Source: Clostridia bacterium (lineage in GTDB: Bacteria > Bacillota > Peptococcia > DRI-13 > SM3-B62). From it: a stretch of 64,000 bases of DNA. The translations under genes and the position numbers were made by a program. Within the stretch, counting starts at the first letter, position 1. Each line of letters starts with the position of its first letter. The DNA lies in assembly GCA_018433675.1 (NCBI GenBank), contig JAHDQS010000001.1:42232-106231 (forward strand). Direction: 5' to 3'. A model generated the notes under the pieces. That model was not told the DNA's origin and did no database searches. It saw nothing but the letters and a program-made list of their open reading frames with translations. Positions 28,670 to 56,536 of this stretch are shown here, one piece after another.

Positions 28670-30160
28670 TTAAAACCCACCCCCCGGCAGCGCATATTGC
28701 AAAATATTGGTTACGATTTGTTCATTAAAAACGCCAAACACGACAATACTTACACCTAATACCAAAATCGGGAGAAGCATCGTCAAAGGAAGTTCCGCAC
28801 TGATTTTCCATGCAGATTTCCCTGTATCTTCGGGTTTTTTACTCCTTCTCATGTAGACCTGTTCTATGACACGGAAAAAGTATACCGCGTTGAGAAGACT
28901 GCTTACTGCTATTACCACAACGAAAACCCACATGCCCTTATCTATCGCTCCCAAGGCTAAATACCACTTACTGAAGAATCCTGCCGTCGGTGGGATACCA
29001 ACCATTGAAAGGGCCGCTATCATAAAAGTGCCCATGGTCAACGGCATCTTTTCGTACAATTCGGCATATTTTTCAATCCCATGTTCACCCGTTTTATATT
29101 TCACACCGCCGGCAACAAGAAAGAGGCAGCTCTTCATAATGGCATGGTTCAAAATGTGTAGCATAGCACCAATCAGCCCGTAGACATTACCTATCGCAAG
29201 TCCCAGCGTAACATAGCTGACTTGAGCAACACTGGAGTAGGCCAGCATACGCCTGAAATCCGACTGAGCTATAGCCATTACAGAGCCGAGTATTATGCCA
29301 AGGCACGCTGCAACCCCCAATACCTGCAAAGCCCCCGGTATAGGACCATTCATAGCTCCAATGATATAAAAGAAAAACCTAAAGAGGACATAAGCGGAGA
29401 CCTTAGTCATTACTCCCGAAATAAAAGCTGCCGCAGGTGGCGGTGCGTACGTATAGGAATCGGGCAGCCAGCCATGTAACGGAAACATAGCCATTTTAAT
29501 ACCCATCCCCAACATAATCATCACTACAGCAATGAGAACCGCCTGCGAATCTGCGATTAACAGTATTTTCTGTGCCAAATCGGCCATATTGAGCGAACCG
29601 GTAACCGAATAGAGATAACCAATTCCCAACAGGTACAACGATGCTCCGACAGTACCAATAAGCAAATACCTGAAAGCCGCCGCTACCGCCTTATAACCGC
29701 CTGCGGCTATTAATCCGTACGCCGATAACGAAGAAATTTCAAGAAAAACATAGAGATTGAAAACGTCGCCCGTTACCACCATACCCATCAAACCCGTTGC
29801 AAGTAAGAGGTATAGAGCATGAAACGTGCCTATCCTAAGCCCATTTTCCTCTTTAAGATATGGCCCGGAATACACCAATACCAAAAACCCGATTATCGCA
29901 ATTAAGACTGCCATTCCGCCGCCCAAGGGATCAACAACGTATTCAATTCCCCAAGGAGGTTCCCATCCTCCAAAGCTATAATGCCAAGTCCCTTCCGCCA
30001 ATACGCGAATCAACGTGCCGATTGCACAGCATGCCGCTGCAAACATGGCCGCAAGCGCCGTCCAGCGCACTATACGCCCTGAGATATAAGAAAGAAAAGG
30101 ACTTGCCAGAGCTGTTAATAGGAGAATCAGAATTAACAGTGCCGGGAGTTGTTCCATCAT
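28670..30160 (-). CDS. mrpD: MrpD/NuoN-like antiporter subunit (first paralogue)
   Basis: HGWLPDSYTYAPPPAAAFISG and AYSSVAQVSYV motifs. It overlaps mrpC by 1 nt. Confidence 0.8.
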   Translation of the reverse strand: MMEQLPALLILILLLTALASPFLSYISGRIVRWTALAAMFAAACCAIGTLIRVLAEGTWHYSFGGWEPPWGIEYVVDPLGGGMAVLIAIIGFLVLVYSGPYLKEENGLRIGTFHALYLLLATGLMGMVVTGDVFNLYVFLEISSLSAYGLIAAGGYKAVAAAFRYLLIGTVGASLYLLGIGYLYSVTGSLNMADLAQKILLIADSQAVLIAVVMIMLGMGIKMAMFPLHGWLPDSYTYAPPPAAAFISGVMTKVSAYVLFRFFFYIIGAMNGPIPGALQVLGVAACLGIILGSVMAIAQSDFRRMLAYSSVAQVSYVTLGLAIGNVYGLIGAMLHILNHAIMKSCLFLVAGGVKYKTGEHGIEKYAELYEKMPLTMGTFMIAALSMVGIPPTAGFFSKWYLALGAIDKGMWVFVVVIAVSSLLNAVYFFRVIEQVYMRRSKKPEDTGKSAWKISAELPLTMLLPILVLGVSIVVFGVFNEQIVTNILQYALPGGGF

Positions 30161-30525
30161 TAATTCATCCTCCGTAACAATTCATCTTCTTCGAGTACCC
30201 CATACTTCTTCTGTAATAGTAACAAGAGTGCCAACGCCACACCTGTTGTACTAAGGCTCACAACAATAGCAGTAAGCATAAGGGCATGAGGCAAAGGATT
30301 GATATAATTGGCCGCACCAGTCAGTCCATGAATCTCAATCGGTAATGTTGCCCCCTCCTTCTGTCCAAGAACCAGGAAAAAGATTATTACGGCCACCTGC
30401 ATGATATTCATTGCCATAAGCTTCTTTACAAGGTTTTTCTGGAGGATTATACCAAAAGGCCCCAACATAAACAAAATAATAATAAGCCAATAGACAAGAT
30501 GGCTTGCTAATAGTTCCTTAATCAT
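30160..30525 (-). CDS. mrpC: MrpC/NuoK-like subunit
   Basis: 121-aa three-TM protein containing MAMNIMQVAVIIFFL and ALMLTAIVVSLSTTGVALALL. Confidence 0.75.
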   Translation of the reverse strand: MIKELLASHLVYWLIIILFMLGPFGIILQKNLVKKLMAMNIMQVAVIIFFLVLGQKEGATLPIEIHGLTGAANYINPLPHALMLTAIVVSLSTTGVALALLLLLQKKYGVLEEDELLRRMN

Positions 30526-30956
30526 AATAAATCTTCCCTTCCGGTAAGAGCATTAAAAATAGCAACAATTGTAGCCATGACACAGATAGTAACGCCTATC
30601 TCTATACCAAGTATCCCTAAAACATGCCTTTCTACAACATCTTGCATCAGAGGCAGCATACCATATTGAAGCATATTTCCTCCTGATAGGATACAGAATA
30701 GGCCGATTAGACCATAAAACAATGCTCCTCCTCCGGCCACAGCAACCGCCCAGGTACCGGGTATTTTTAAAAAGGCCTTATCTCCATGTACCAAATGTTC
30801 CAGTACTATTGCTATTCCAAAAAGCGCCCCTGCTTGGAACCCACCACCGGGACTATCTTCTCCATGGATAAGGACATAAACCGCATAGACCAAAATAAAC
30901 GGAACAAGATATCTAAAGGCCGTATCCAGCACTACACTGCCAAAGCGTCTGTTCAT
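30522..30956 (-). CDS. mrpB: MrpB/MbhF-like subunit
   Basis: 144-aa membrane protein with SPGGGFQAGA, characteristic of the MnhB domain. Confidence 0.7.
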   Translation of the reverse strand: MNRRFGSVVLDTAFRYLVPFILVYAVYVLIHGEDSPGGGFQAGALFGIAIVLEHLVHGDKAFLKIPGTWAVAVAGGGALFYGLIGLFCILSGGNMLQYGMLPLMQDVVERHVLGILGIEIGVTICVMATIVAIFNALTGREDLL

Positions 30957-31267
30957 TCTCCGTCCACCCCGCTATCGTCACCATTTTTTCTACCGGTACG
31001 AAGAAGCAAGACGGCAGCCACTCCAGCGGTAAAAATTACTGTCGTCTCTCCCAAAGTATCATATCCCCTGTAGTCGGCCAGCACCGCGGTCACAAAATTG
31101 GGCGAGCCCGTCTCCCTATGGCTTTCTTCAATGTAACGGGGCGATACATTAACGGCTGCCGGCGAATTCTTATCAAACAGCACAGGAAGTCCACCGGCTG
31201 TAGCAAAAAGCACGACAACCATTAGTCCCAAACTCAAATATGAAAAAAGCTTCATCACTTCGAACAC
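30953..31267 (-). CDS. MbhE-like small subunit (MnhB-domain fragment)
   Basis: NFVTAVLADYRGYDTLGETTVIFTAGVAA motif. Confidence 0.65.
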   Translation of the reverse strand: MFEVMKLFSYLSLGLMVVVLFATAGGLPVLFDKNSPAAVNVSPRYIEESHRETGSPNFVTAVLADYRGYDTLGETTVIFTAGVAAVLLLRTGRKNGDDSGVDGE

Positions 31268-31500
31268 CTCCTACGCAAGCCGTTCAACGCTATGATAAAG
31301 AATGTCGTTGAAACCACGCCTACCACTGCCTCAGTAAAAGCCACATCCGGAGCTCCTAATGTTAAATAAATCAAAACCGCAAAAAAACTAAAGGCACTGA
31401 ACAAGATTATTGCCGCCAACAGGTCGTCAACCAATAAAGCCGCAACACCTGTAATTACCATCAAAATTAATATCCCCGTTTGCAAATACAACTGTATCAA
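31255..31500 (-). CDS. MbhD-like/DUF4040 small subunit
   Basis: 81-aa three-TM protein containing LGAPDVAFTEAVVG. Confidence 0.6.
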   Translation of the reverse strand: MIQLYLQTGILILMVITGVAALLVDDLLAAIILFSAFSFFAVLIYLTLGAPDVAFTEAVVGVVSTTFFIIALNGLRRRCSK

Positions 31501-31502
31501 AT

Positions 31503-31814
31503 CTATTCCCCCCCCCTAGTCCATGGCTTTAAGCCGCACCTGTAGGCTGCTCGGCAAATGGCATGAGTACCAATGGGGTTAGCCAGAAAAATAAAAACCA
31601 CAATAAACAATAGCTTTACACTAGTAAATGTAAATCCATCCTCAATGGCAAGATAAAAGATCAAGCCAATAATAGACAAAGCAACACCGAGCGTGTCCCC
31701 TTTACCGGAGGCATGCATGCGGGTATAAAAATCGGGGAAGCGGATTACGCCCAGGGCTGCAACAAAAGTGAAAAAGAATCCGCCTAGAAGGAACAGTAGA
31801 GCGAGATACTTCAT
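31503..31814 (-). CDS. mrpG: MrpG subunit
   Basis: LGVIRFPDFYTRMHASGKGDTLG is the MnhG signature. Confidence 0.8.
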   Translation of the reverse strand: MKYLALLFLLGGFFFTFVAALGVIRFPDFYTRMHASGKGDTLGVALSIIGLIFYLAIEDGFTFTSVKLLFIVVFIFLANPIGTHAICRAAYRCGLKPWTRGGE

Positions 31815-32089
31815 ACGTCAGCATCTCCTTTCCCCTCGAGGTATTTCGCAAATATTACCATACTGATAAACCCTAAGATGGAGTAAGCAATGGCCACATC
31901 TACAAACATATCGACTCGTCCGCTAAGGACACCGAGCAAAACTAACAGTAAAATCGCATCCGTCCCGATAACCGCAAGTCCGTTCAAACGGTCAAACACT
32001 GTAGGTCCGTGCAGCACCCTATAAAGCATTAAAACAGCAATTACCGCTAAGCCGATAATAAGAGCCATAAAAACATAAGTGAAATCCAT
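31811..32089 (-). CDS. mrpF: MrpF subunit
   Basis: 92-aa three-TM protein with LHGPTVFDRLNGL, typical of MrpF. Confidence 0.7.
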   Translation of the reverse strand: MDFTYVFMALIIGLAVIAVLMLYRVLHGPTVFDRLNGLAVIGTDAILLLVLLGVLSGRVDMFVDVAIAYSILGFISMVIFAKYLEGKGDADV

Positions 32090-32092
32090 TTG

Positions 32093-32677
32093 CTAATCAC
32101 CCCTTCCCTCGACCTCATTCTCCTGAAAAAGGCGGGCTACCTTTTCAGGCATTATACCTTCTCCTTCGTCCGGAGTCAGCGCCTTTTCCGCATCCTCGTC
32201 AAGCGCATGGACAATATAAACATTATCCTGTAAATCAACTGTAATCGTACCTGGTGTCAATGTTATCGAATTTGCCAGAAATACGTGGGCAATAGGGCTG
32301 TCCATTTTCTTCTTAAACGCGAAAACTTTAGGTTCAATCGGCATTTTCGGATTGAGTACTATCAGCGCAACATGAACATTGGCCTTAACAACCTCCCATA
32401 TAAGCCAAGGCACATACGCCAAAAGCCTTCGAATAGGAATATCGAAGGCTAGATAATATTCATCCTTATTTTCCCCCGACGGCAAACGCAATAAAGAAAG
32501 TGTCACCCAAACAACAACCAGAGAAGTAACCGCTCCAATAGTTAAATGTTTAACATCCAGTTTGCCGGAAAGAGTTGTCCAAAAAAGAAATAAAATCAAA
32601 AATAAAGTGCTAAAATGTTTGAAATAAGAATACCGTTTGGTTTTTGTTTTACCAGCAGAAGTTGTATTCATAACCAT
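32093..32677 (-). CDS. mrpE: MrpE subunit
   Basis: First gene of the cluster. It has TM helices followed by VVKANVHVALIVLNP..ITLTPGT, typical of MnhE. Confidence 0.7.
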   Translation of the reverse strand: MVMNTTSAGKTKTKRYSYFKHFSTLFLILFLFWTTLSGKLDVKHLTIGAVTSLVVVWVTLSLLRLPSGENKDEYYLAFDIPIRRLLAYVPWLIWEVVKANVHVALIVLNPKMPIEPKVFAFKKKMDSPIAHVFLANSITLTPGTITVDLQDNVYIVHALDEDAEKALTPDEGEGIMPEKVARLFQENEVEGRGD

Positions 32678-50317: not shown

Positions 50318-51217
50318 TCAATCCATGGATCCATTATATTTGTTCACCAACAGCACTCCGAAAATAATAAAAACCCCGCCGATCAAAGAAGATAATAACA
50401 GCTTTTCTTCAAGAAACAGCACAGAGATAGCGGTCACAAAAAGAGGAATCAAATTCAAAAAAGCAGCAGCTTCCCCGGCCTTAACCTTTACAACTGCCGC
50501 ATTCCAGCAAACATATGAAAGAAGCGTCGGGAAAATATTCAGCATCAAAATCCAGAATAAGTGAGAAGGATTGAGTTTTGTCACCCAGTCCAAGCCGCTT
50601 ATCATGCCGTCGAAGAAAACCAGTATAAGATTTAACAGCAGACCACCGCAAATCAAAAAAGTAAAAAGGGGCCACTGATTGAATACTCCAGCCACTTTTT
50701 TATAAATCAAAGAATAGAGAGCCCAACTGAACACGCTTAACAACATAATGGCATCGCCGGGATTGACATTCATCTGGAACAAGCGACCCAATTGACCGTT
50801 GAAGATTATAGTTAGCACGCCAATCAGCGAAACAAATATACCGACAAACTGGATTTTATCCAATTTTTCCCGGTAGAGAACAAACGCAGACAACGTGAAA
50901 ACAATCGGACTAAAAGATTGAATAAAAGAAGCATTGATGGCCGTCGTATAATTAACCGCCAGATATGCGGTTACGCCATTAATACAATATCCTGTCAGAG
51001 CCAGAAAAAGCAAGATATGCATCTTGTCAAGATAAAACCGCAGGTTTGCTCTGATTTCCGTCCAAGTCAGCGGAAAAAACACCAAAAAAGCAACCAACCA
51101 GCGCATGAAGTTTAGCGCTATCGGCGGCACTATACCCGCCAAAATTTTCCCAATTATAAAGTTCAAAGAAAAGAAAGCGGCTGCCAAGACAAGAAGCAAA
51201 TAACGATTTATTTGCAT
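50318..51217 (-). CDS. DMT-superfamily (EamA) transporter
   Basis: 299-aa ten-TM profile with two EamA-like halves. Confidence 0.7.
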   Translation of the reverse strand: MQINRYLLLVLAAAFFSLNFIIGKILAGIVPPIALNFMRWLVAFLVFFPLTWTEIRANLRFYLDKMHILLFLALTGYCINGVTAYLAVNYTTAINASFIQSFSPIVFTLSAFVLYREKLDKIQFVGIFVSLIGVLTIIFNGQLGRLFQMNVNPGDAIMLLSVFSWALYSLIYKKVAGVFNQWPLFTFLICGGLLLNLILVFFDGMISGLDWVTKLNPSHLFWILMLNIFPTLLSYVCWNAAVVKVKAGEAAAFLNLIPLFVTAISVLFLEEKLLLSSLIGGVFIIFGVLLVNKYNGSMD

Positions 51218-51235: not shown

Positions 51236-51268
51236 GCGCCCGGAAGATATTTCTCCGGGCGCTTTTTT
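51236..51268 (+). terminator. Strong GC hairpin with a plus-strand U-tract, lying between two minus-strand genes
   Basis: GCGCCCGGA-AGATATTTC-TCCGGGCGC followed by TTTTTT on the plus strand. The minus-strand reading is followed only by CUUUGAAAGG. Confidence 0.5.
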
Positions 51269-51325: not shown

Positions 51326-52171
51326 TCATTTTGTGTGTTCTTGCACCCATTCATCGAGTGTTACAACTTTATCCGGCCATTCCAAAATTTTATTATGCGG
51401 AGGAAGGGGAGGATTAGGTGCTAGCATATATCCAACCGGGAAAGAGTGCCCGGTCACATATGCTTTTTCCATGCCGGTAACCCATTCTTCAAAGAAATTG
51501 ATATTTAAGCCCACTGCAACCTCGCTATCCGTAAAGAAGCCCATCCTTCTTCCCCCATGGCAAGGGAGTCCGATAAACAAGTCATTATGAAGGTAAGCTT
51601 GAGCAGCACTAACCGCACATATACCGCACATATTAAAATACGTTATTATGTTAGGGTTGCCTGTATTCCACATCTGACCATCAAGCACTTTATTAATCAT
51701 TCCCGGACATACCGCAAAGAGAATAACATCAGGTTCAATCGTTAGATCCTGCAGTGGTCCAACTAGAATATCCTTCATCGTATTCGGGGTTATTTTCGGT
51801 ATATCCTTCTGAGCAATTCCAGCCGCCTCGGCAGTAGCAAAATGAACCCCGCCCATATGTTCACCCGTGGCAACAAAGCCATCCCATGGTTCAAAACCAA
51901 GAACACCTGCTGCGAAGGGACAATTGAAATCCCCGCTGTTTACAATGTAGTTCTTTCTAACGAGACATCTTTCATAGCGAGCAAAAGAAATATACTGACA
52001 GAACGTCCCTTTAAAATCAGGCCTTTCACCTACACCTTCAGGCACAGCTTCGCCGATCTTGTAAAACTTCAGTCCTACGGGCATGGTGGGAATTCTGAGG
52101 TGCGCCTCGATCAGCCTGGCCTTTTCAATGTTTTCTTTTAGTCCTCTTGGTCTGTCAAATTCAGTCTTCAT
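51326..52171 (-). CDS. DUF169-family protein (paralogue 2)
   Basis: Shares PVG(L/I)KF, FCQY(I/L)S(F/L)ARY, GxCG(I/V)C and VTGHS(F/Y)P blocks with the adjacent gene. I chose the start at MKTEFD (52171). Confidence 0.7.
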   Translation of the reverse strand: MKTEFDRPRGLKENIEKARLIEAHLRIPTMPVGLKFYKIGEAVPEGVGERPDFKGTFCQYISFARYERCLVRKNYIVNSGDFNCPFAAGVLGFEPWDGFVATGEHMGGVHFATAEAAGIAQKDIPKITPNTMKDILVGPLQDLTIEPDVILFAVCPGMINKVLDGQMWNTGNPNIITYFNMCGICAVSAAQAYLHNDLFIGLPCHGGRRMGFFTDSEVAVGLNINFFEEWVTGMEKAYVTGHSFPVGYMLAPNPPLPPHNKILEWPDKVVTLDEWVQEHTK

Positions 52172-52241
52172 ATTTTTACCCCTTTCAATTATCATTTTTA
52201 TTTATTTTCATAGCCTTTTCATTTCACCATAGGCAATAACG

Positions 52242-53039
52242 CTAGGCTCTTTCCACTTTATTTGGCCACTCTATGATGCGATAATGCGGTGCATGAGAAG
52301 GATTCGGATACATGCCAATCCCTATGGGATAAGAGTGTCCGGTAACATAGGTCTTTTCCAATCCATCTAAGAATTCATCCAGAATTTCTGATGAAATGCC
52401 TACAATCAACTCAATATCCTGATAGTTACCAAACCGTCTTGAGCCCTGACAGGGAAATCCTACAACCAAGGTTTTCTCTAAATATGCTTTTACAACCGTC
52501 CATCCGCAGACACCACAGATTCCTGAATACTTTACATTTAACCCCCCCGAATTGAACCACTGGTAGCCTTCCGATATTCTATTTAGTTGTCCGGGCAGGA
52601 TAGCTAAAAAAACCAGATCGGGGCGAACATCCATTTTCTCTAAAGGACCAATTATTAAACCGCTAAGTTCCCCCTTTGGCATTAAGGGAACAGATCTCAC
52701 AGACTCCTGGCTGTCTTCCAGGTTTTTGTGATGAATATTCAAGAACTTTTCGCCATTTGTCCAATCCTCAGGCCAATCATTGAATCCCAAGGCTACTAAC
52801 GCCATTGAACAAATAATATCTTCTTTTTTCACATAATACACATCCTGATGGCACCGATCGTAGCGCGCCAAAGAAAGGTATTGACATAAATTGTATTTTT
52901 CAGTCGGCTTGCAATATCTACCATCATCAACAGTCTCATTGTCTTTAATAAATTTAATTCCCACTGGAAAGGTCAATGGACGAATGTGCCATTCAATTTG
53001 TTTAGTTATATCAATGTTTTCTTTTAATATTTCGGCCAT
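52242..53039 (-). CDS. DUF169-family protein (paralogue 1)
   Basis: FPVGIKF..LCQYLSLARYDRC..GICGVCG..YVTGHSYP. A GAGGAGG RBS precedes the start, which lies 31 nt downstream of dctM. Confidence 0.7.
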   Translation of the reverse strand: MAEILKENIDITKQIEWHIRPLTFPVGIKFIKDNETVDDGRYCKPTEKYNLCQYLSLARYDRCHQDVYYVKKEDIICSMALVALGFNDWPEDWTNGEKFLNIHHKNLEDSQESVRSVPLMPKGELSGLIIGPLEKMDVRPDLVFLAILPGQLNRISEGYQWFNSGGLNVKYSGICGVCGWTVVKAYLEKTLVVGFPCQGSRRFGNYQDIELIVGISSEILDEFLDGLEKTYVTGHSYPIGIGMYPNPSHAPHYRIIEWPNKVERA

Positions 53040-53070
53040 TTTATTACCTCCTCGTCTTTTTGCGTTTTAC

Positions 53071-54393
53071 TCATCTCACCATTAAACTTGGCAACCAAAG
53101 AATAAACTGCGGAAAAGCGGCAAAAAGAATTACACCGATAATCTGAATAATAATAAAGGGAACAACTCCTTTGTATATATCCCATGTCGTAATCTCCGGA
53201 GGAGCTATGCCTTTCAGATAAAAAATGGAATAGGCAAACGGAGGTGTGAGAAATGACGTTTGCATAACAATCATAATCATCATCGCAAACCATATTTCAT
53301 TATAGCCCAGTGTAGCCGCAATAGGCGTAAACAGCGGAACAACTATCATGATAATCCCAATCCAGTCTATAAACATTCCCAATAGAAAAACGATCAAGAA
53401 CATACAAAATATTATGCCCCAGGACGGAAGAGGCAGACCCACAACCATGTTTTTTACTACCTCCGAGCATCCCAATCGCAAAAAGACTCCCGTATATACA
53501 GATGCTCCCACAATCACCAGATACACCATGCTGCATACCTTAACGGTTTGATGTATTATTGATTTGATATTTTCCCGATTTAAGGATTTATAGGCAACCG
53601 CAAGGATTAAAGCTCCCGCACATCCGATAGCTGCGGCCTCGGTGGCGGCTGCCAGCCCAAAAAATATTGATCCGAGCACACTTAATATCAATATCCCAAC
53701 GGGCAAAACCGAAGTGCAAAACAACTTAATCTTTTTCCAAGTGCCGATTTTAACCTCGTCCTCGGCCCTCATTCCCGGACCCAGCTCCGGATTTATCTTG
53801 CATCTGATTACTATATAAAGAATGTACATAGCCGAAAGCGTCAAGCCGGGAATAAAAGCACCCATGAACAGTTTTCCGACCGACAAACCGGCCATCGGAC
53901 CATATATTAAAATCAATACGCTCGGCGGTATCAGTATTCCCAACGTACCACCCGCACAAATAGTTCCGGTAGCCAGCGCTTTATCATATTTATACTTCAT
54001 CATTGTAGGCAGAGCCAAAAGTCCCATTGTTACAACCGAAGCCCCGATAACCCCCGTAGCGGCGGCAAAGATCGTGCAGGTAACCATCGTTGCAAGTGCC
54101 ATGCCCCCATTAAGACGTCCCAAAATAAGGTACATAGCATCAAATAATTTGCTTGCCAACCCGGATTTTTCAATTATAATTCCCATACAGATAAAAAGCG
54201 GAACCGCAACCAAAATATAATCCATGAAAGTTCCAAATGTTTTGAGGACAAATATCCCCGTATAAGCCGGCCCAACAAATATTAACCCAAACAGGGCACC
54301 CACGCCACCTAAAACTAAGGCAATGGGATAACCGAGAATAATTAAAACGATAAGCGAAGTAAGCATTAATAATGCTATCATACTTGCACTCAT
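53071..54393 (-). CDS. TRAP transporter large permease (DctM family)
   Basis: 440-aa polytopic protein with a typical DctM sequence (LALPTM..GTLGILIPPS). It overlaps dctQ by 4 nt. Confidence 0.85.
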   Translation of the reverse strand: MSASMIALLMLTSLIVLIILGYPIALVLGGVGALFGLIFVGPAYTGIFVLKTFGTFMDYILVAVPLFICMGIIIEKSGLASKLFDAMYLILGRLNGGMALATMVTCTIFAAATGVIGASVVTMGLLALPTMMKYKYDKALATGTICAGGTLGILIPPSVLILIYGPMAGLSVGKLFMGAFIPGLTLSAMYILYIVIRCKINPELGPGMRAEDEVKIGTWKKIKLFCTSVLPVGILILSVLGSIFFGLAAATEAAAIGCAGALILAVAYKSLNRENIKSIIHQTVKVCSMVYLVIVGASVYTGVFLRLGCSEVVKNMVVGLPLPSWGIIFCMFLIVFLLGMFIDWIGIIMIVVPLFTPIAATLGYNEIWFAMMIMIVMQTSFLTPPFAYSIFYLKGIAPPEITTWDIYKGVVPFIIIQIIGVILFAAFPQFILWLPSLMVR

Positions 54394-54905
54394 GGCCGCT
54401 CACCACCTGACAATTCTATAATATCTCTTATCCACTCTACAACTCCTTGAATCAATAAGAGGATCAGTGCAAACAGAATCCAGCTTTTAAAAGGATATAT
54501 CGGTGGTTTTATTGAACTGATTGAGGCTAGTTCGTGTATTCCCCACGAGTGTATAACATCTTGCAACATAGCATATAGTCCTACGCTCATGAACAGAAAA
54601 AAAAGGAGCGGAGTCAACAGAATATCAAGTAACAAACGTACCTTAGCCGGAAAAAGATTATAAACAACATCCACCCGTACATGCCCTTTTTCTCTATAAG
54701 TCCAGGCAAATCCCATTGTCACTACTACGCTGCTTAACATATAGGTTGCATCATAACTCCACAATGTAGGACTATGGAAAACATACCTGGAAATAACCTC
54801 ATAAACCATGGTTGCAATAAGCGCTAAAATAAACCAGCCAAACAGCTTCCCCACTTTCTCATTAAAAATATCAATCATATGAAAAACTTTGCGCAACTTT
54901 TTCAC
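54390..54905 (-). CDS. TRAP transporter small permease (DctQ family)
   Basis: 171-aa four-TM protein located between the dctP-like and dctM genes. Confidence 0.75.
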   Translation of the reverse strand: MKKLRKVFHMIDIFNEKVGKLFGWFILALIATMVYEVISRYVFHSPTLWSYDATYMLSSVVVTMGFAWTYREKGHVRVDVVYNLFPAKVRLLLDILLTPLLFFLFMSVGLYAMLQDVIHSWGIHELASISSIKPPIYPFKSWILFALILLLIQGVVEWIRDIIELSGGERP

Positions 54906-55004
54906 TCCCTTGATTTTAAAAGACTTTGCTTACATCTTCTGAGTCGTTTCTTTGGAGTTTAAATGCGAAACGTTGTTTTACCTGTAGTTCCCTTCCAAGT
55001 AAAC

Positions 55005-55073
55005 ATTACTGGCTTTCCGTACAAAAAATAATGCTTTATTCACAAATAGTAAATTGTACGGAAAACCAGTAAT
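55005..55073 (-). promoter_or_regulatory. Long intercistronic stem-loop between the dctP-like gene and dctQ
   Basis: ATTACTGGCTTTCCGTACAA (55005-55024) pairs with TTGTACGGAAAACCAGTAAT (55054-55073): 20-nt arms with one mismatch or wobble and a 29-nt loop. Confidence 0.6.
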
Positions 55074-55091
55074 TTCAATTAAAATATTTTC

Positions 55092-56216
55092 TTATTCATA
55101 TGTGCCGGGTTCCGGTTTAACTGGATGCATAAATTCTTCATAGTCCGAAAACCTGAGATAATATGCTCTTGCAGAATCCCATACTTCTTTTAAGAACTCA
55201 TCGTTTTTCGCCTGTTCATCAATAAATGCCCAGCCGAGTTCGCGAACTCTATGTTGCTCGCTTTCCTCCAGTTTGTTGCGTTGCACGCCTTCCTTATCGT
55301 AAAATTCCAAAGCCTCAATACTTGTATTATAGTCACTGCATAAAGCCCATAAGGTCACAGAACGGCAGGCGGTTTCAATCATAGCTTGATATTGGGCAGG
55401 CAGTTTATCCCATTCGTCTTTATTAATGCCTATCTCAGTAATCATGCTGGGCTGATGTACGCCAGGTCCTGCATAATAATCGGATACCTCATAAAATTTC
55501 AAATCATAGTCTGTCGTTGGGGAATCATATTCAACCGCATCGACAACTCCTCTTTCCATGGCCGAATATATCTCCGCACCGGGTACAGATACTACCGATA
55601 CGCCGATTGACTTTAGTATCTCACCCCACCAACTAATAGTTCTGAATTTCAGCCCCTTCCAGTCTTCCAGCTTATCAAGGGGTTTGTTTGTCCAGGCTAA
55701 TAAATCCGGTCCGTGCGCACCCGCGGGGAAGGAAATAACATTTAAACCCATTTCCTCTTGATACATTCTCTGCCATAATTCCAGCCCGCCGCCTTCGTAT
55801 ATCCATGTCAAATGAGCCAGCGGTTCAAAACACATGATGACAGAAGAGAAAAACCCTGATGCCGGGTGTTTTCCCATCCAATAATTTGCACATGAATGCA
55901 TGATTTCAACAGTACCCTTATCAACTGCATCAAGTGCCTCCATAGCGCCTACAATCGCTCCGCCCGGCTGCACGTCAATCGTAAACTTACCGCCACTCAT
56001 CTTCTCGATCTCTCCAGCAAATTCTTTGGCCCACTTTTGCAGGCTCATTCCTTCCGACCAAGAAGTCGTCATTGTCCAGTGAACTTCAGGCAAACCATCA
56101 TTGGTTTCAGCAACAGCAGGGGTTTTTTCACCTCCGCACCCGCTAAACATTGTCATAACAAGACATGCCAATACGACCAATGATAGAACCGCAATATACT
56201 TTTTTGGAATTAACAT
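55092..56216 (-). CDS. TRAP transporter substrate-binding lipoprotein (DctP family)
   Basis: Lipobox MFSGC. DctP-like FRTISWWGEILKSIGVSVVSVPGAEIYSAMERGVVDAVEY. I chose the start at MLIPKK (56216) because a GAAGGAGG RBS precedes it; the track ORF extends to 56261. Confidence 0.8.
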   Translation of the reverse strand: MLIPKKYIAVLSLVVLACLVMTMFSGCGGEKTPAVAETNDGLPEVHWTMTTSWSEGMSLQKWAKEFAGEIEKMSGGKFTIDVQPGGAIVGAMEALDAVDKGTVEIMHSCANYWMGKHPASGFFSSVIMCFEPLAHLTWIYEGGGLELWQRMYQEEMGLNVISFPAGAHGPDLLAWTNKPLDKLEDWKGLKFRTISWWGEILKSIGVSVVSVPGAEIYSAMERGVVDAVEYDSPTTDYDLKFYEVSDYYAGPGVHQPSMITEIGINKDEWDKLPAQYQAMIETACRSVTLWALCSDYNTSIEALEFYDKEGVQRNKLEESEQHRVRELGWAFIDEQAKNDEFLKEVWDSARAYYLRFSDYEEFMHPVKPEPGTYE

Positions 56217-56506
56217 TACCTTTCCTCCTTCAAAATAATAGTTTCTTTTCTTCCCAGACATAAATCAACCGGATTTCTTTTGAGAAACAACAATCTCTAA
56301 ATGTCCTGTTTATACTAATAAATATTCAATAACAACATACCCCCTCTATGTTCTGTATTGCCGAACGTCGTTCGGTTCTTTTCTCAAAAAAAATTATTGC
56401 CTCTTGTCCAATTTAATATCTGTCTCTTTTTTGTTATAGATTATAGCTGCTTATCTCCGAGACGATCGTTGTTCGTCATTGTCACACGCTGTTCGTTATT
56501 ATCTCA

Positions 56507-56536
56507 ATAGTACAGCTTTCGACATATATGTGTCAA
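56507..56536 (-). promoter_or_regulatory. Candidate promoter of the TRAP-DUF169 operon
   Basis: The minus strand reads TTGACA (56531-56536), an 18-nt spacer, then TACTAT (56507-56512). This implies a leader of roughly 290 nt. Confidence 0.4.

What the first reader, a model, noticed from the sequence alone, without database searches (positions are those of the whole stretch)
51326..56216. TRAP transporter operon ending in two tandem DUF169 paralogues of unknown function
**What the sequence shows.**
- dctP-like, dctQ and dctM are followed, after 31 nt and a strong RBS, by two DUF169 proteins of 265 and about 281 aa.
- The two share conserved blocks: PVG(I/L)KF, CQYxSxARY, GxCGxCG, a Cys-containing PCxG block and VTGHSxP.
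- DUF169 has no established biochemical function.
- Co-transcription with a high-affinity solute uptake system suggests the pair acts on the imported, unknown substrate.
- The conserved cysteines hint at metal or redox chemistry.
- No pathway enzymes or regulator are encoded nearby.
Basis: partly seen in the sequence, partly recalled or inferred. Interest (0 to 1): 0.55.

Follow-up and report, generated by a model that had tools for sequence, protein, structure and literature searches.

The report
Keto-acid importer operon with two DUF169 genes
A bacterial uptake system that probably imports small alpha-keto or alpha-hydroxy acids is followed in the same operon by two old paralogues of DUF169, a protein family with no known function and no structural relative in the PDB; this gives a concrete but unproven way to find out what that family does.

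Summary
On the minus strand lie dctP (56216..55092), dctQ, dctM, DUF169-A (53039..52242, 265 aa) and DUF169-B (52171..51326, 281 aa). The gaps before A and B are 31 nt and 70 nt, each with a ribosome-binding site, and no convincing internal promoter or terminator was found. A and B are 38% identical and belong to two old, rare clades.

New findings:
- **Binding protein.** It falls in the TakP / lactate-binding class and keeps the carboxylate Arg and most cation-site residues. The cargo is probably a small 2-oxo or 2-hydroxy monocarboxylate.
- **Fold.** Both DUF169 models are confident (pLDDT about 91) but have no significant neighbour in the PDB.
- **Conserved residues.** Three Cys, two Arg, Gln, Asp and Glu are invariant across the 102 aligned family members.
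- **TRAP linkage.** It is only partly conserved: 3 of 4 A-type loci and 4 of 15 B-type loci, involving three different TRAP lineages.
- **Other B-type neighbours.** B-type genes more often sit beside FAH-family hydratases with pyruvate aldolases (7 of 15) or Ior-type 2-oxoacid:ferredoxin oxidoreductases (5 of 15).

Best reading: the two DUF169 proteins are cytoplasmic enzymes acting on the imported 2-oxo/2-hydroxy acid. The chemistry is unknown. Rival themes (CoA thioesters, sulfur or methyl chemistry, a transporter accessory role) are not excluded. Interest is moderate.

The parts
56507..56536 (-). Best sigma-70-like promoter candidate upstream of dctP (TTGACA, 18 nt, TACTAT). It lies about 290 nt before the dctP start.
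   Evidence: (10 of 12 matches; the scan as a whole is at chance level, so this is only a candidate) and the sequence. A purA terminator-like hairpin with a T-run lies upstream, around 56672-56630.
56360..56376 (.). Perfect palindrome CCGAACGaCGTTCGG in the dctP leader. It may be an operator for a regulator encoded elsewhere.
   Evidence: Sequence; picked up as a hairpin. The leader as a whole does not fold unusually (z = -0.81) and has no Rfam match.
55092..56216 (-). dctP: lipoprotein-anchored TRAP solute-binding protein of the TakP / lactate-binding class (374 aa, lipobox FSGC).
   Evidence: Pfam PF03480, E = 3e-45. Best PDB matches are 7ug8 'Ketoacid-binding protein' (8.6e-51), 2zzv (TTHA0766) and 2hzk/2hzl (TakP). 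Of the TakP ligand residues, R177, Y100 and E214 are kept, W215 becomes Y (a main-chain ligand), Q156 becomes D and E240 becomes Q.
55006..55072 (-). Stem-loop between dctP and dctQ: 18-bp stem (one G-U pair) and 31-nt loop. It may act as an mRNA stabiliser or partial terminator that raises the ratio of binding protein to membrane subunits.
   Evidence: Sequence, read directly. Function is inferred.
54390..54905 (-). dctQ, the small TRAP membrane subunit. The exact start is uncertain: GTG 54905, TTG 54896 or ATG 54878.
   Evidence: Pfam PF04290, E = 1.6e-22; sequence.
53071..54393 (-). dctM, the large TRAP membrane subunit (440 aa).
   Evidence: Pfam PF06808, E = 2.8e-79. TIGR00786, 292 bits against a cut-off of 268. 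70% identical to the DctM that precedes the A-type DUF169 in a Peptococcaceae MAG.
52242..53039 (-). DUF169-A (265 aa): cytoplasmic, member of a very rare clade.
   Evidence: PF02596, E = 4e-41. Only 4 orthologues among 5.8 billion clusters, and a single 50%-identity cluster in 1.84 billion representatives. AlphaFold2 pLDDT 91.8, pTM 0.90. No PDB neighbour.
51326..52171 (-). DUF169-B (281 aa): cytoplasmic paralogue, 38% identical to A.
   Evidence: PF02596, E = 5e-34. Paralogy. 23 relatives found. AlphaFold2 pLDDT 90.9, pTM 0.89. No significant PDB neighbour.
51236..51262 (-). GC-rich hairpin (GCGCCCGGA...UCCGGGCGC) after DUF169-B and 18 nt before the EamA start. The U-tract on this strand is weak; the T-run on the opposite strand is perfect. 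Probably a partial operon terminator.
   Evidence: Sequence. Fold of -26.3 kcal/mol, z = -2.65.
50318..51217 (-). EamA/DMT-family permease immediately downstream. It may be linked: an EamA gene also neighbours the B-type DUF169 in an unrelated Bacillota MAG.
   Evidence: Pfam PF00892, E = 9e-42. EamA fragments lie beside B-type genes in L004, L005 and L010 (30% identity over 150 aa). This is weak evidence.

Best explanation
The locus is a five-gene operon.

**Uptake.** A lipoprotein-anchored binding protein of the TakP class captures a small 2-oxo or 2-hydroxy monocarboxylate. An Arg forms a salt bridge to the carboxylate, and a bound cation bridges the carboxylate and the 2-oxo or 2-hydroxy oxygen. 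DctQM then import the acid.

**Processing.** The two cytoplasmic DUF169 paralogues act on that acid. Each keeps every residue that is invariant across the aligned family members.

**Likely place in metabolism.** In other genomes, orthologous B-type genes sit beside MhpD/HpcG-type hydratases with DmpFG, beside HpcE-like FAH enzymes with HpcH/HpaI aldolases, or beside Ior-type 2-oxoacid:ferredoxin oxidoreductases. From this I infer a non-redox elimination or isomerisation on the 2-oxo-acid skeleton. That step would feed a route of 2-oxo-enoate to 4-hydroxy-2-oxo-acid to pyruvate plus aldehyde, or an oxidative decarboxylation, encoded elsewhere in this genome.

**Proposed active site.** The two invariant Arg would hold the carboxylate. 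The three invariant Cys begin helices in the models (C52, C178) or sit just before one (C77). Together with D208 and E210 they would form a metal, Fe-S or thiol catalytic centre.

**Shown:** gene order, operon-like spacing, family membership, the class of the binding protein, the neighbourhood statistics, and the confident fold without a PDB neighbour.

**Inferred:** co-transcription, the identity of the substrate, any catalytic activity, the role of the Cys residues, and any A/B heteromer.
For: **Operon anatomy**
-.

**Binding-protein class**
- 7ug8 ketoacid-binding protein (8.6e-51), TTHA0766 lactate-binding protein, TakP.
- four of the six TakP ligand or cation residues are kept (one, W215 to Y, as a main-chain ligand); the other two are replaced by residues that could still bind a cation.

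**A-type DUF169 follows TRAP genes in 3 of 4 loci**
-.
- The TRAP binding proteins at these loci are only 22% identical to each other.

**B-type DUF169 beside TRAP genes**
- Seen in L003, L008 and L015.

**B-type DUF169 beside FAH-family enzymes**
- MhpD-like in L003, L008, L015 and L026.
- HpcE-like with an HpcH aldolase in L012, L013 and L016.
-.

**B-type DUF169 beside Ior-like oxidoreductases**
- Seen in L006, L013, L015, L021 and L023.

**Other 2-oxo-acid enzymes beside DUF169 genes**
- A KARI and an IlvD/EDD enzyme flank the cluster in L008.
- An ApbA ketopantoate-reductase-like gene precedes a DUF169 of another clade.

**Conserved residues**
- C52, Q53, R59, C77, C178, R201, D208 and E210 are invariant in all 102 aligned sequences, and both A and B keep them.
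- Helices begin at C52 and C178, and one residue after C77.

**Location**
- Neither DUF169 protein has a signal peptide (translations).
Against: - The window holds no hydratase, aldolase, oxidoreductase or regulator, so the pathway context is borrowed from orthologues that are 51-67% identical.
- TRAP linkage is absent from 11 of 15 B-type loci. One A-type gene instead follows an HpaB/AbfD-like gene.
- No similarity to any known enzyme was found by sequence, profile or fold, so catalytic activity is itself an assumption.
- Fusions and neighbours elsewhere in the family point to other themes: CoaE, MaoC, URO-D, an acyl-CoA ligase, UbiE-like methyltransferases, CoADR-rhodanese and TauE.
- A DUF169 gene occurs on a plasmid of Cupriavidus, a genus I know as aerobic, which argues mildly against an oxygen-labile cluster as a family-wide feature.
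Confidence: 0.38

Rival explanations
1. DUF169 proteins act on coenzyme A or acyl-CoA thioesters, not on the free imported acid. In this operon they would handle the CoA ester formed from the imported 2-oxo acid by an oxidoreductase or ligase encoded elsewhere.
For: - Fusions DUF169+CoaE occur in two separate 50%-identity clusters (P0200, P0234). P0234 was seen on contigs from two samples.
- One fusion has the order hot-dog domain, DUF169, MaoC enoyl-CoA hydratase domain (P0242).
- Neighbours elsewhere include a long-chain fatty-acid-CoA ligase in Cupriavidus, an acyl-CoA dehydrogenase and CoA-disulfide reductase-rhodanese, an HpaB/4-hydroxybutyryl-CoA-dehydratase-like gene, Ior-type oxidoreductases, which by established knowledge of the family yield acyl-CoA, and an acylating aldehyde dehydrogenase.
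Against: - No CoA-related gene lies in the operon or within about 5 kb.
- The fusions are in distant DUF169 clades, about 26% identical to A.
- No nucleotide-binding or CoA-binding motif or fold was detected.
Confidence: 0.17
2. The invariant cysteines serve thiol, persulfide, metalloid or methyl-group chemistry. Examples would be desulfuration of a sulfur-bearing 2-oxo acid, or handling of Se, As or Hg species, with the transporter supplying that compound.
For: - CoADR-rhodanese or CoADR-like genes lie next to B-type genes in L003, L006 and L009.
- TauE-type permeases neighbour DUF169 genes in L012 and in Desulfovibrio G20.
- UbiE-like methyltransferases are adjacent in L012 and L042/L043, and a DUF169 gene is listed with UbiE and MerR among the genes nearest a Nitrospina hgcA homologue.
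- A URO-D-family domain is fused to DUF169 in P0191 and encoded nearby, with CobW, in Acetoanaerobium.
- A DUF169 gene is listed among genes co-occurring with the selenium-associated gene yedE.
- ArsR, ArsP and HMA genes lie downstream of the A-type gene in L001.
Against: - The binding protein is of the plain alpha-keto/alpha-hydroxy acid class.
- None of these sulfur, metalloid or methyl genes is in the operon or its immediate flanks.
- Each association is seen in only 1-3 loci and in different clades, so they may reflect functional diversity or chance.
Confidence: 0.12
3. DUF169 proteins are not enzymes. They would be cytoplasmic ligand-binding accessory or regulatory proteins that sense the solute and tune the adjacent transporter, much as TeaD does in the TeaABC TRAP operon.
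For: - DUF169 genes neighbour many unrelated transporter classes: TRAP (three lineages), ABC with an NMT1-type binding protein, TauE, MFS, SBF and EamA.
- The A-type gene lies directly after the last TRAP gene in 3 of 4 loci.
- The only, and non-significant, fold resemblance for both models is to tandem ACT ligand-binding domains of the aspartokinase regulatory subunit (E = 0.07-0.4, TM 0.17-0.28).
Against: - The fold hits are insignificant.
- An invariant set of Cys, Arg, Asp and Glu in all 102 aligned sequences looks more like an active site.
- Most B-type genes sit inside catabolic enzyme clusters without a transporter.
- Fusions are to enzymes.
Confidence: 0.13
4. The adjacency carries no functional meaning. 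The DUF169 pair merely landed downstream of a TRAP operon, has an unrelated role and is expressed on its own.
For: - TRAP linkage is absent in most related loci.
- The 70-nt A-B spacer and the 31-nt spacer could hide weak promoters that the scan missed.
Against: - A-type genes recur directly after TRAP genes of two unrelated lineages, and B-type genes beside three lineages. This is hard to explain by chance in clades this small.
- The spacing is tight with ribosome-binding sites, and no terminator lies between dctM and A.
Confidence: 0.1

Closest known systems
TakPQM alpha-keto-acid TRAP transporter of Rhodobacter sphaeroides (PDB 2HZK/2HZL), with its relatives TTHA0766 (lactate-binding, 2ZZV) and 7UG8 'Ketoacid-binding protein'
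   Same: - Three-component DctP/Q/M architecture.
- The binding protein's best PDB matches are these proteins (E = 1e-40 to 9e-51).
- The carboxylate Arg (TakP R177), Y100 and E214 are conserved, and the W215 main-chain position is aligned.
   Different: - Q156 becomes D and E240 becomes Q. The Q matches TTHA0766.
- The protein is lipoprotein-anchored, as expected in a Gram-positive host.
- The ligand is untested.
- To my knowledge none of those characterised systems is reported with DUF169 genes.
DUF169 / COG2043 (Pfam PF02596, 'Uncharacterised ArCR')
   Same: - Both proteins score far above the gathering threshold.
- Both keep every column that is invariant across the aligned family members.
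   Different: - A and B form two old, rare clades, at most 9 clusters at E <= 1e-30 among 1.84 billion representatives.
- They carry extra Cys (C63, C175, C197) and a GHS[YF]P...PH..I.EWP C-terminal region that the commonest clade lacks.
- The family itself has no known function or solved structure.
Lower meta-cleavage modules: MhpD/HpcG hydratase with DmpG or HpcH aldolase and DmpF
   Same: Orthologues of DUF169-B are the first gene of, or adjacent to, such modules in 7 of 15 loci.
   Different: - No such gene lies in this window.
- The relatives come from MAGs labelled Peptococcaceae, Desulfobacterales, Desulfarculaceae and Syntrophales, lineages I know as anaerobic, and no ring-cleavage dioxygenase was seen in the annotated flanks. 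The step that feeds the hydratase is unknown.
TeaD, the accessory protein encoded in the TeaABCD ectoine TRAP operon of Halomonas elongata (recalled from memory, not checked here)
   Same: A soluble cytoplasmic protein encoded as an extra gene of a TRAP operon.
   Different: TeaD is a universal-stress-protein (USP) domain ATP-binding regulator. DUF169 shows no USP or nucleotide-binding similarity.

Membership tests
DUF169 (PF02596) | Match to the Pfam model above the gathering score | tested here: met
   A scores 141.6 bits and B 118.4 bits against a cut-off of 27.
DUF169 (PF02596) | Residues invariant across the aligned family (C52, Q53, R59, C77, C178, R201, D208, E210 in A numbering) | tested here: met
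   All are present in both A and B and in all 102 aligned members.
TRAP transporter (DctPQM type) | Binding protein (PF03480) plus small (PF04290) and large (PF06808) membrane subunits encoded together | tested here: met
   dctM also passes TIGR00786 (292 bits against 268).
TRAP transporter (DctPQM type) | Conserved Arg in the binding protein that forms a salt bridge to the substrate carboxylate | tested here: met
   TakP R177 aligns with the Arg in 'LKFRT' of the window protein.
TakP / lactate-binding binding-protein class (cation-bridged alpha-keto/alpha-hydroxy acid binding) | Closest solved relatives belong to this class | tested here: met
   7ug8 at 8.6e-51, 2zzv at 1.3e-40, 2hzk at 9.5e-40. 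Sialic-acid and C4-dicarboxylate binding proteins score only about 1e-7.
TakP / lactate-binding binding-protein class (cation-bridged alpha-keto/alpha-hydroxy acid binding) | The six sodium-pyruvate ligand residues of TakP (Y100, Q156, R177, E214, W215 main chain, E240) | tested here: inconclusive
   Y100, R177 and E214 are identical. W215 becomes Y (a main-chain ligand). Q156 becomes D and E240 becomes Q, so oxygen ligands remain but differ. Actual ligand and cation binding is untested.
Fe-S (three-Cys [4Fe-4S]) hydro-lyase-like enzymes (considered as a working analogy) | Sequence or fold similarity to a known Fe-S hydro-lyase family | tested here: not met
   No Pfam family other than DUF169 at E <= 1. 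No PDB sequence or profile hit. No Foldseek hit with E < 0.07.
Fe-S (three-Cys [4Fe-4S]) hydro-lyase-like enzymes (considered as a working analogy) | Three Cys thiolates clustered in space and binding a cluster | not testable with these tools
   Three Cys are invariant and lie at or next to helix starts.
Lower meta-cleavage catabolic cluster (hydratase, aldolase, acylating dehydrogenase) | Hydratase and aldolase genes encoded with the DUF169 gene | tested here: not met
   None in the 64-kb window. The feature is met only at orthologous loci L003, L008, L012, L013, L015, L016 and L026.
ACT-domain ligand-binding proteins | Significant structural match to ACT domains | tested here: not met
   The top Foldseek hits for both models are the aspartokinase regulatory subunit, but with E = 0.07-0.4, TM 0.17-0.28 and rmsd 11-13 A.

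The most novel reading that the evidence does not exclude
DUF169 is a new enzyme fold. It would be a thiol-, metal- or Fe-S-dependent lyase or isomerase for 2-oxo/2-hydroxy acids. The A and B clades would work together, possibly as a heteromer, on the acid imported by the TakP-class transporter. That would define an unrecognised entry step, in lineages I take to be anaerobic, into the route from 2-oxo-enoate through hydratase and aldolase to pyruvate plus aldehyde.
Probability: 0.15. Interest if true: 0.75.

Novelty: new member of a known kind. Interest (0 to 1): 0.45.

Why it matters
PF02596 (DUF169) has one of the lowest DUF numbers in Pfam. It has no assigned function, no solved structure and, as shown here, no detectable structural relative in the PDB despite confident models.

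This operon is a minimal system: one importer whose binding protein points to a short list of candidate ligands (small 2-oxo and 2-hydroxy acids), plus two DUF169 proteins. That makes a direct experiment possible: screen the binding protein for its ligand, then feed that ligand to the purified proteins.

The neighbourhood survey adds a second handle. B-type genes recur with vinylpyruvate-type hydratases and aldolases and with Ior-type oxidoreductases in MAGs from lineages known as anaerobic. If an activity is found, it would annotate several hundred protein clusters and might fill a missing step in anaerobic organic-acid catabolism. If nothing is found, the locus is simply an ordinary TRAP operon with two hypothetical genes.

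Tried and rejected
**Structure and sequence searches that found nothing**
- PDB sequence searches with A alone and with a 102-sequence profile gave nothing below E = 0.05.
- Foldseek against the PDB gave nothing significant for either model. The recurring weak ACT/aspartokinase hits were rejected as evidence (TM <= 0.28).
- Pfam at E <= 1 gave no second family for A or B. NCBIfam had no model for either.

**Literature**
- Searches for DUF169, COG2043 and PF02596 found only incidental mentions.
- Searches for PDB codes to confirm binding-protein ligands found nothing useful. The erythronate/pantoate ligands of 4PAK, 4P9K, 4PDH and 4NQ8 therefore rest on my memory only.

**RNA and regulatory elements**
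- Rfam over the whole window gave 0 hits.
- The dctP leader fold is unremarkable (z = -0.81).
- Promoter and terminator scans were at chance level.

**Hypotheses dropped**
- 'A-type DUF169 is always TRAP-linked' is rejected by L027, where it follows an HpaB-like gene.
- 'The 278-aa unknown gene next to B-type in L013 and L016 is a cryptic DUF169 paralogue' is rejected (hhalign probability 1.3%).
- 'Pathway genes are elsewhere in the window' is rejected.

**Searches that returned little**
- Genome and metagenome scans returned only 6 and 11 loci, many of them short. The statistics therefore rest on about 15 B-type and 4 A-type loci.
- The plasmid collection gave two distant DUF169 loci.
- The exact-match look-up for the window's own protein found no contig. 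The cluster look-up gave no name or accession, so the organism is not identified. The closest relative of A and DctM is a Peptococcaceae MAG.

Full report

Yes. All genes in the region are on the minus strand. Pfam confirms each of them:

| Gene | Coordinates | Length | Pfam family | E-value |
|---|---|---|---|---|
| dctP | ORF 56261..55092 | 374 aa from ATG 56216 | PF03480 | 3e-45 |
| dctQ | 54905..54390 | 171 aa | PF04290 | 2e-22 |
| dctM | 54393..53071 | 440 aa | PF06808 | 3e-79 |
| DUF169-A | 53039..52242 | 265 aa | PF02596 | 4e-41 |
| DUF169-B | ORF 52195..51326 | 281 aa from ATG 52171 | PF02596 | 5e-34 |

- The preferred dctP start is ATG 56216, behind GAAGGAGGA. The mature N-terminus has a lipobox (FSGC), so the binding protein is lipid-anchored, as expected in a Gram-positive host.
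- The preferred B start is ATG 52171, behind AAAGGGG. This gives the 281-aa protein found in the databases.
- The dctM-A spacer is 31 nt with GAGGAGG, and the A-B spacer is 70 nt.
- A and B are 38% identical, E = 2e-71.
One correction: GxCGxCG is exact only in A, and B reads CGICA.
- The flanks are mostly housekeeping genes. purA is confirmed upstream, together with two unscanned ORFs, one of which looks like dnaB by eye. EamA, rubrerythrin and a radical SAM gene lie downstream.
- No homologue of the pathway, regulator or CoADR proteins seen at related loci exists anywhere in the 64-kb window.

**2. Operon structure**

- Promoter and terminator scans are at chance level overall.
- The best promoter candidate is TTGACA-18-TACTAT at 56536..56507, downstream of a purA terminator-like hairpin. 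It would give a leader of about 290 nt.
- The leader contains a perfect palindrome, CCGAACGaCGTTCGG (56376-56360). It has no Rfam match and no unusual folding (z = -0.81).
- An 18-bp stem-loop lies between dctP and dctQ (55072..55006).
- A GC-rich hairpin follows DUF169-B (51262..51236; z = -2.65). Its U-tract on the coding strand is weak, so it is probably a partial terminator before EamA.
- Nothing suggests an independent promoter for the DUF169 genes, but co-transcription is inferred, not shown.

**3. The transporter**

- The binding protein's closest solved relatives are 7ug8 ('Ketoacid-binding protein', 8.6e-51), TTHA0766 (2zzv) and TakP (2hzk/2hzl). Sialic-acid and C4-dicarboxylate binders score only about 1e-7.
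- TTHA0766 is named a lactate-binding protein in the fusion-protein entries 7e9y and 8zmz of the same table.
- The TakP paper lists the sodium-pyruvate ligand residues as R177, Y100, Q156, E214, the W215 main chain and E240 (PMC1839085).
- In the HMMER alignment the window protein keeps R177, Y100 and E214. It has Y for W215, D for Q156 and Q for E240; the Q matches TTHA0766.
- The cargo is therefore most probably a small 2-oxo or 2-hydroxy monocarboxylate bound through a bridging cation.

**4. The DUF169 proteins**

- No function is reported in the literature. There are only incidental mentions:
  - a DUF169 gene next to a TauE-like permease in a Desulfovibrio nitrate-fitness cluster;
  - listing among genes co-occurring with yedE;
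  - listing among the genes nearest a Nitrospina hgcA homologue.
- AlphaFold2 gives confident models for A (pLDDT 91.8, pTM 0.90) and B (90.9 and 0.89). Both have the same order of secondary-structure elements.
- Neither model has a significant PDB neighbour by Foldseek. The best E-values are 0.39 and 0.069 with TM <= 0.28, and both weakly hit tandem ACT domains of aspartokinase.
- Sequence and profile searches of the PDB also find nothing.
- Across 102 aligned family members the invariant residues are C52, Q53, R59, C77, C178, R201, D208 and E210, plus structural Gly and Pro. A and B both keep all of them.
- Helices begin at C52 and C178, and one residue after C77.
- C63, C175 and C197 (the PCxG Cys) are specific to the A/B clades.
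- An exhaustive HMMER search of 1.84 billion representatives found 526 clusters at E <= 1e-3 but only 9 at E <= 1e-30. A-type is a single 50%-identity cluster.
- A neighbour-joining tree places A and B as separate old clades within one superclade. This is not a recent tandem duplication.

**5. Is the TRAP linkage conserved?**

Only partly.

A-type (4 loci):

| Locus | Context |
|---|---|
| Window | Directly after dctM |
| L001/L002 (Peptococcaceae MAG) | Directly after a 70%-identical dctM |
| L003 | Directly after dctP of a different TRAP lineage (binding proteins 22% identical) |
| L027 | After an HpaB/AbfD-like gene and a small ORF; 3-kb contig |

B-type (15 distinct loci). Several features can occur at the same locus:

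| Neighbouring feature | Loci | Count |
|---|---|---|
| TRAP genes (three lineages) | window, L003, L008, L015 | 4 |
| MhpD/HpcG-like FAH hydratase (with DmpF/DmpG in L003) | L003, L008, L015, L026 | 4 |
| HpcE-like FAH enzyme plus HpcH/HpaI aldolase | L012, L013, L016 | 3 |
| Ior-type 2-oxoacid:ferredoxin oxidoreductase, usually with an FrhB-like gene | L006, L013, L015, L021, L023 | 5 |
| CoADR-rhodanese or CoADR-like | L003, L006, L009 | 3 |
| UbiE-like methyltransferase | L012, L042/L043 | 2 |

- Regulators next to B-type genes are IclR (L003, L008, L015) or TetR (L006).
- A and B occur together only in the window and in L003.

**6. Context elsewhere in the family**

- An ApbA (ketopantoate-reductase-like) gene precedes a DUF169 of another clade.
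- A Cupriavidus plasmid has the order XRE regulator, DUF169, acyl-CoA ligase.
- Acetoanaerobium has DUF169, an ABC transporter with an NMT1-type binding protein, CobW and a URO-D-family gene.
- Fusions exist with URO-D, with CoaE (two clusters) and inside a MaoC double hot-dog protein.
- The family is therefore probably functionally diverse. CoA-linked and sulfur- or methyl-linked readings cannot be excluded.

**7. Explanation**

The best-supported reading (confidence about 0.38) has three parts:
- A TakP-class importer brings in a small 2-oxo or 2-hydroxy acid.
- The two cytoplasmic DUF169 paralogues transform it.
- The transformation is probably a non-redox elimination or isomerisation at a Cys/Arg/Asp/Glu centre, possibly with a metal or Fe-S cluster. 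It would feed a hydratase/aldolase route or an oxidative-decarboxylation route encoded elsewhere.

Rivals are a CoA-thioester role (0.17), a non-catalytic transporter accessory or sensor (0.13), sulfur, metalloid or methyl chemistry (0.12) and meaningless adjacency (0.10).

What is shown: gene order, family membership, binding-protein class, neighbourhood counts, and a confident fold without a solved neighbour. Catalysis, substrate, cofactor and any heteromer are inferred.

**8. Novelty and score**

- The TRAP system is an ordinary member of a known class.
- The DUF169 genes are true members of a catalogued family whose function is unknown. I therefore file the locus as a new member of a known kind.
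- The A/B clades are rare and carry clade-specific features.
- Its value is as a minimal, testable system for assigning a function to PF02596.
- Interest is 0.45. The finding is real and useful, but the linkage is partial and the mechanism is unproven.

Noticed in passing
window 55006-55072 (minus strand): A long stem-loop (18-bp stem, 31-nt loop) lies between dctP and dctQ. It may set the ratio of binding protein to membrane subunits.
   Followed up: partly
window 51236-51262: A GC-rich hairpin after DUF169-B has a perfect T-run on the plus strand but only CUUUG on the coding strand. It sits 18 nt before the EamA start, so EamA may be expressed by read-through.
   Followed up: partly
window 56360-56376 and 56440-56500: The dctP leader holds the perfect palindrome CCGAACGaCGTTCGG and several ACGAACA-like repeats. 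These may be an operator for a regulator not encoded in the window.
   Followed up: partly
window 50318-51217; L004, L005, L010: An EamA/DMT permease neighbours B-type DUF169 both here and in an unrelated Bacillota MAG (30% identity over 150 aa). This is a possible second transporter link.
   Followed up: partly
window 28670-32677: A run of small hydrophobic ORFs next to a 496-aa membrane protein looks by eye like an Mrp/Mnh-type multisubunit cation/proton antiporter cluster. It coincides with the positive AT-skew block at 26-32 kb.
   Followed up: no
whole window: 38 of the 41 ORFs of at least 200 aa are on the minus strand, and the three plus-strand ones include two that overlap longer minus-strand ORFs. 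GC skew is uniformly negative (-0.12 to -0.29). The window also holds purA and a dnaB-like ORF, which would fit one replichore arm near the origin. No tRNA, rRNA or riboswitch was found by Rfam in 64 kb.
   Followed up: no
L013 8875-9711; L016 1091-1927: A conserved 278-aa protein with no Pfam family lies between B-type DUF169 and the HpcE-like and HpcH genes. It is not a DUF169 relative (hhalign probability 1.3%).
   Followed up: partly
P0191, P0200, P0234, P0242 (distant DUF169 clusters): Domain fusions of DUF169 occur with URO-D, with dephospho-CoA kinase (CoaE) and inside a MaoC double hot-dog hydratase. These are possible clues to function in other clades.
   Followed up: partly
L041 (Acetoanaerobium noterae NZ_CP154629.1): A 2.6-Mb record is filed as a 'plasmid' with only 4 annotated features. 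It is probably a chromosome in the plasmid collection. It carries DUF169, an ABC transporter, CobW and a URO-D-family gene.
   Followed up: partly
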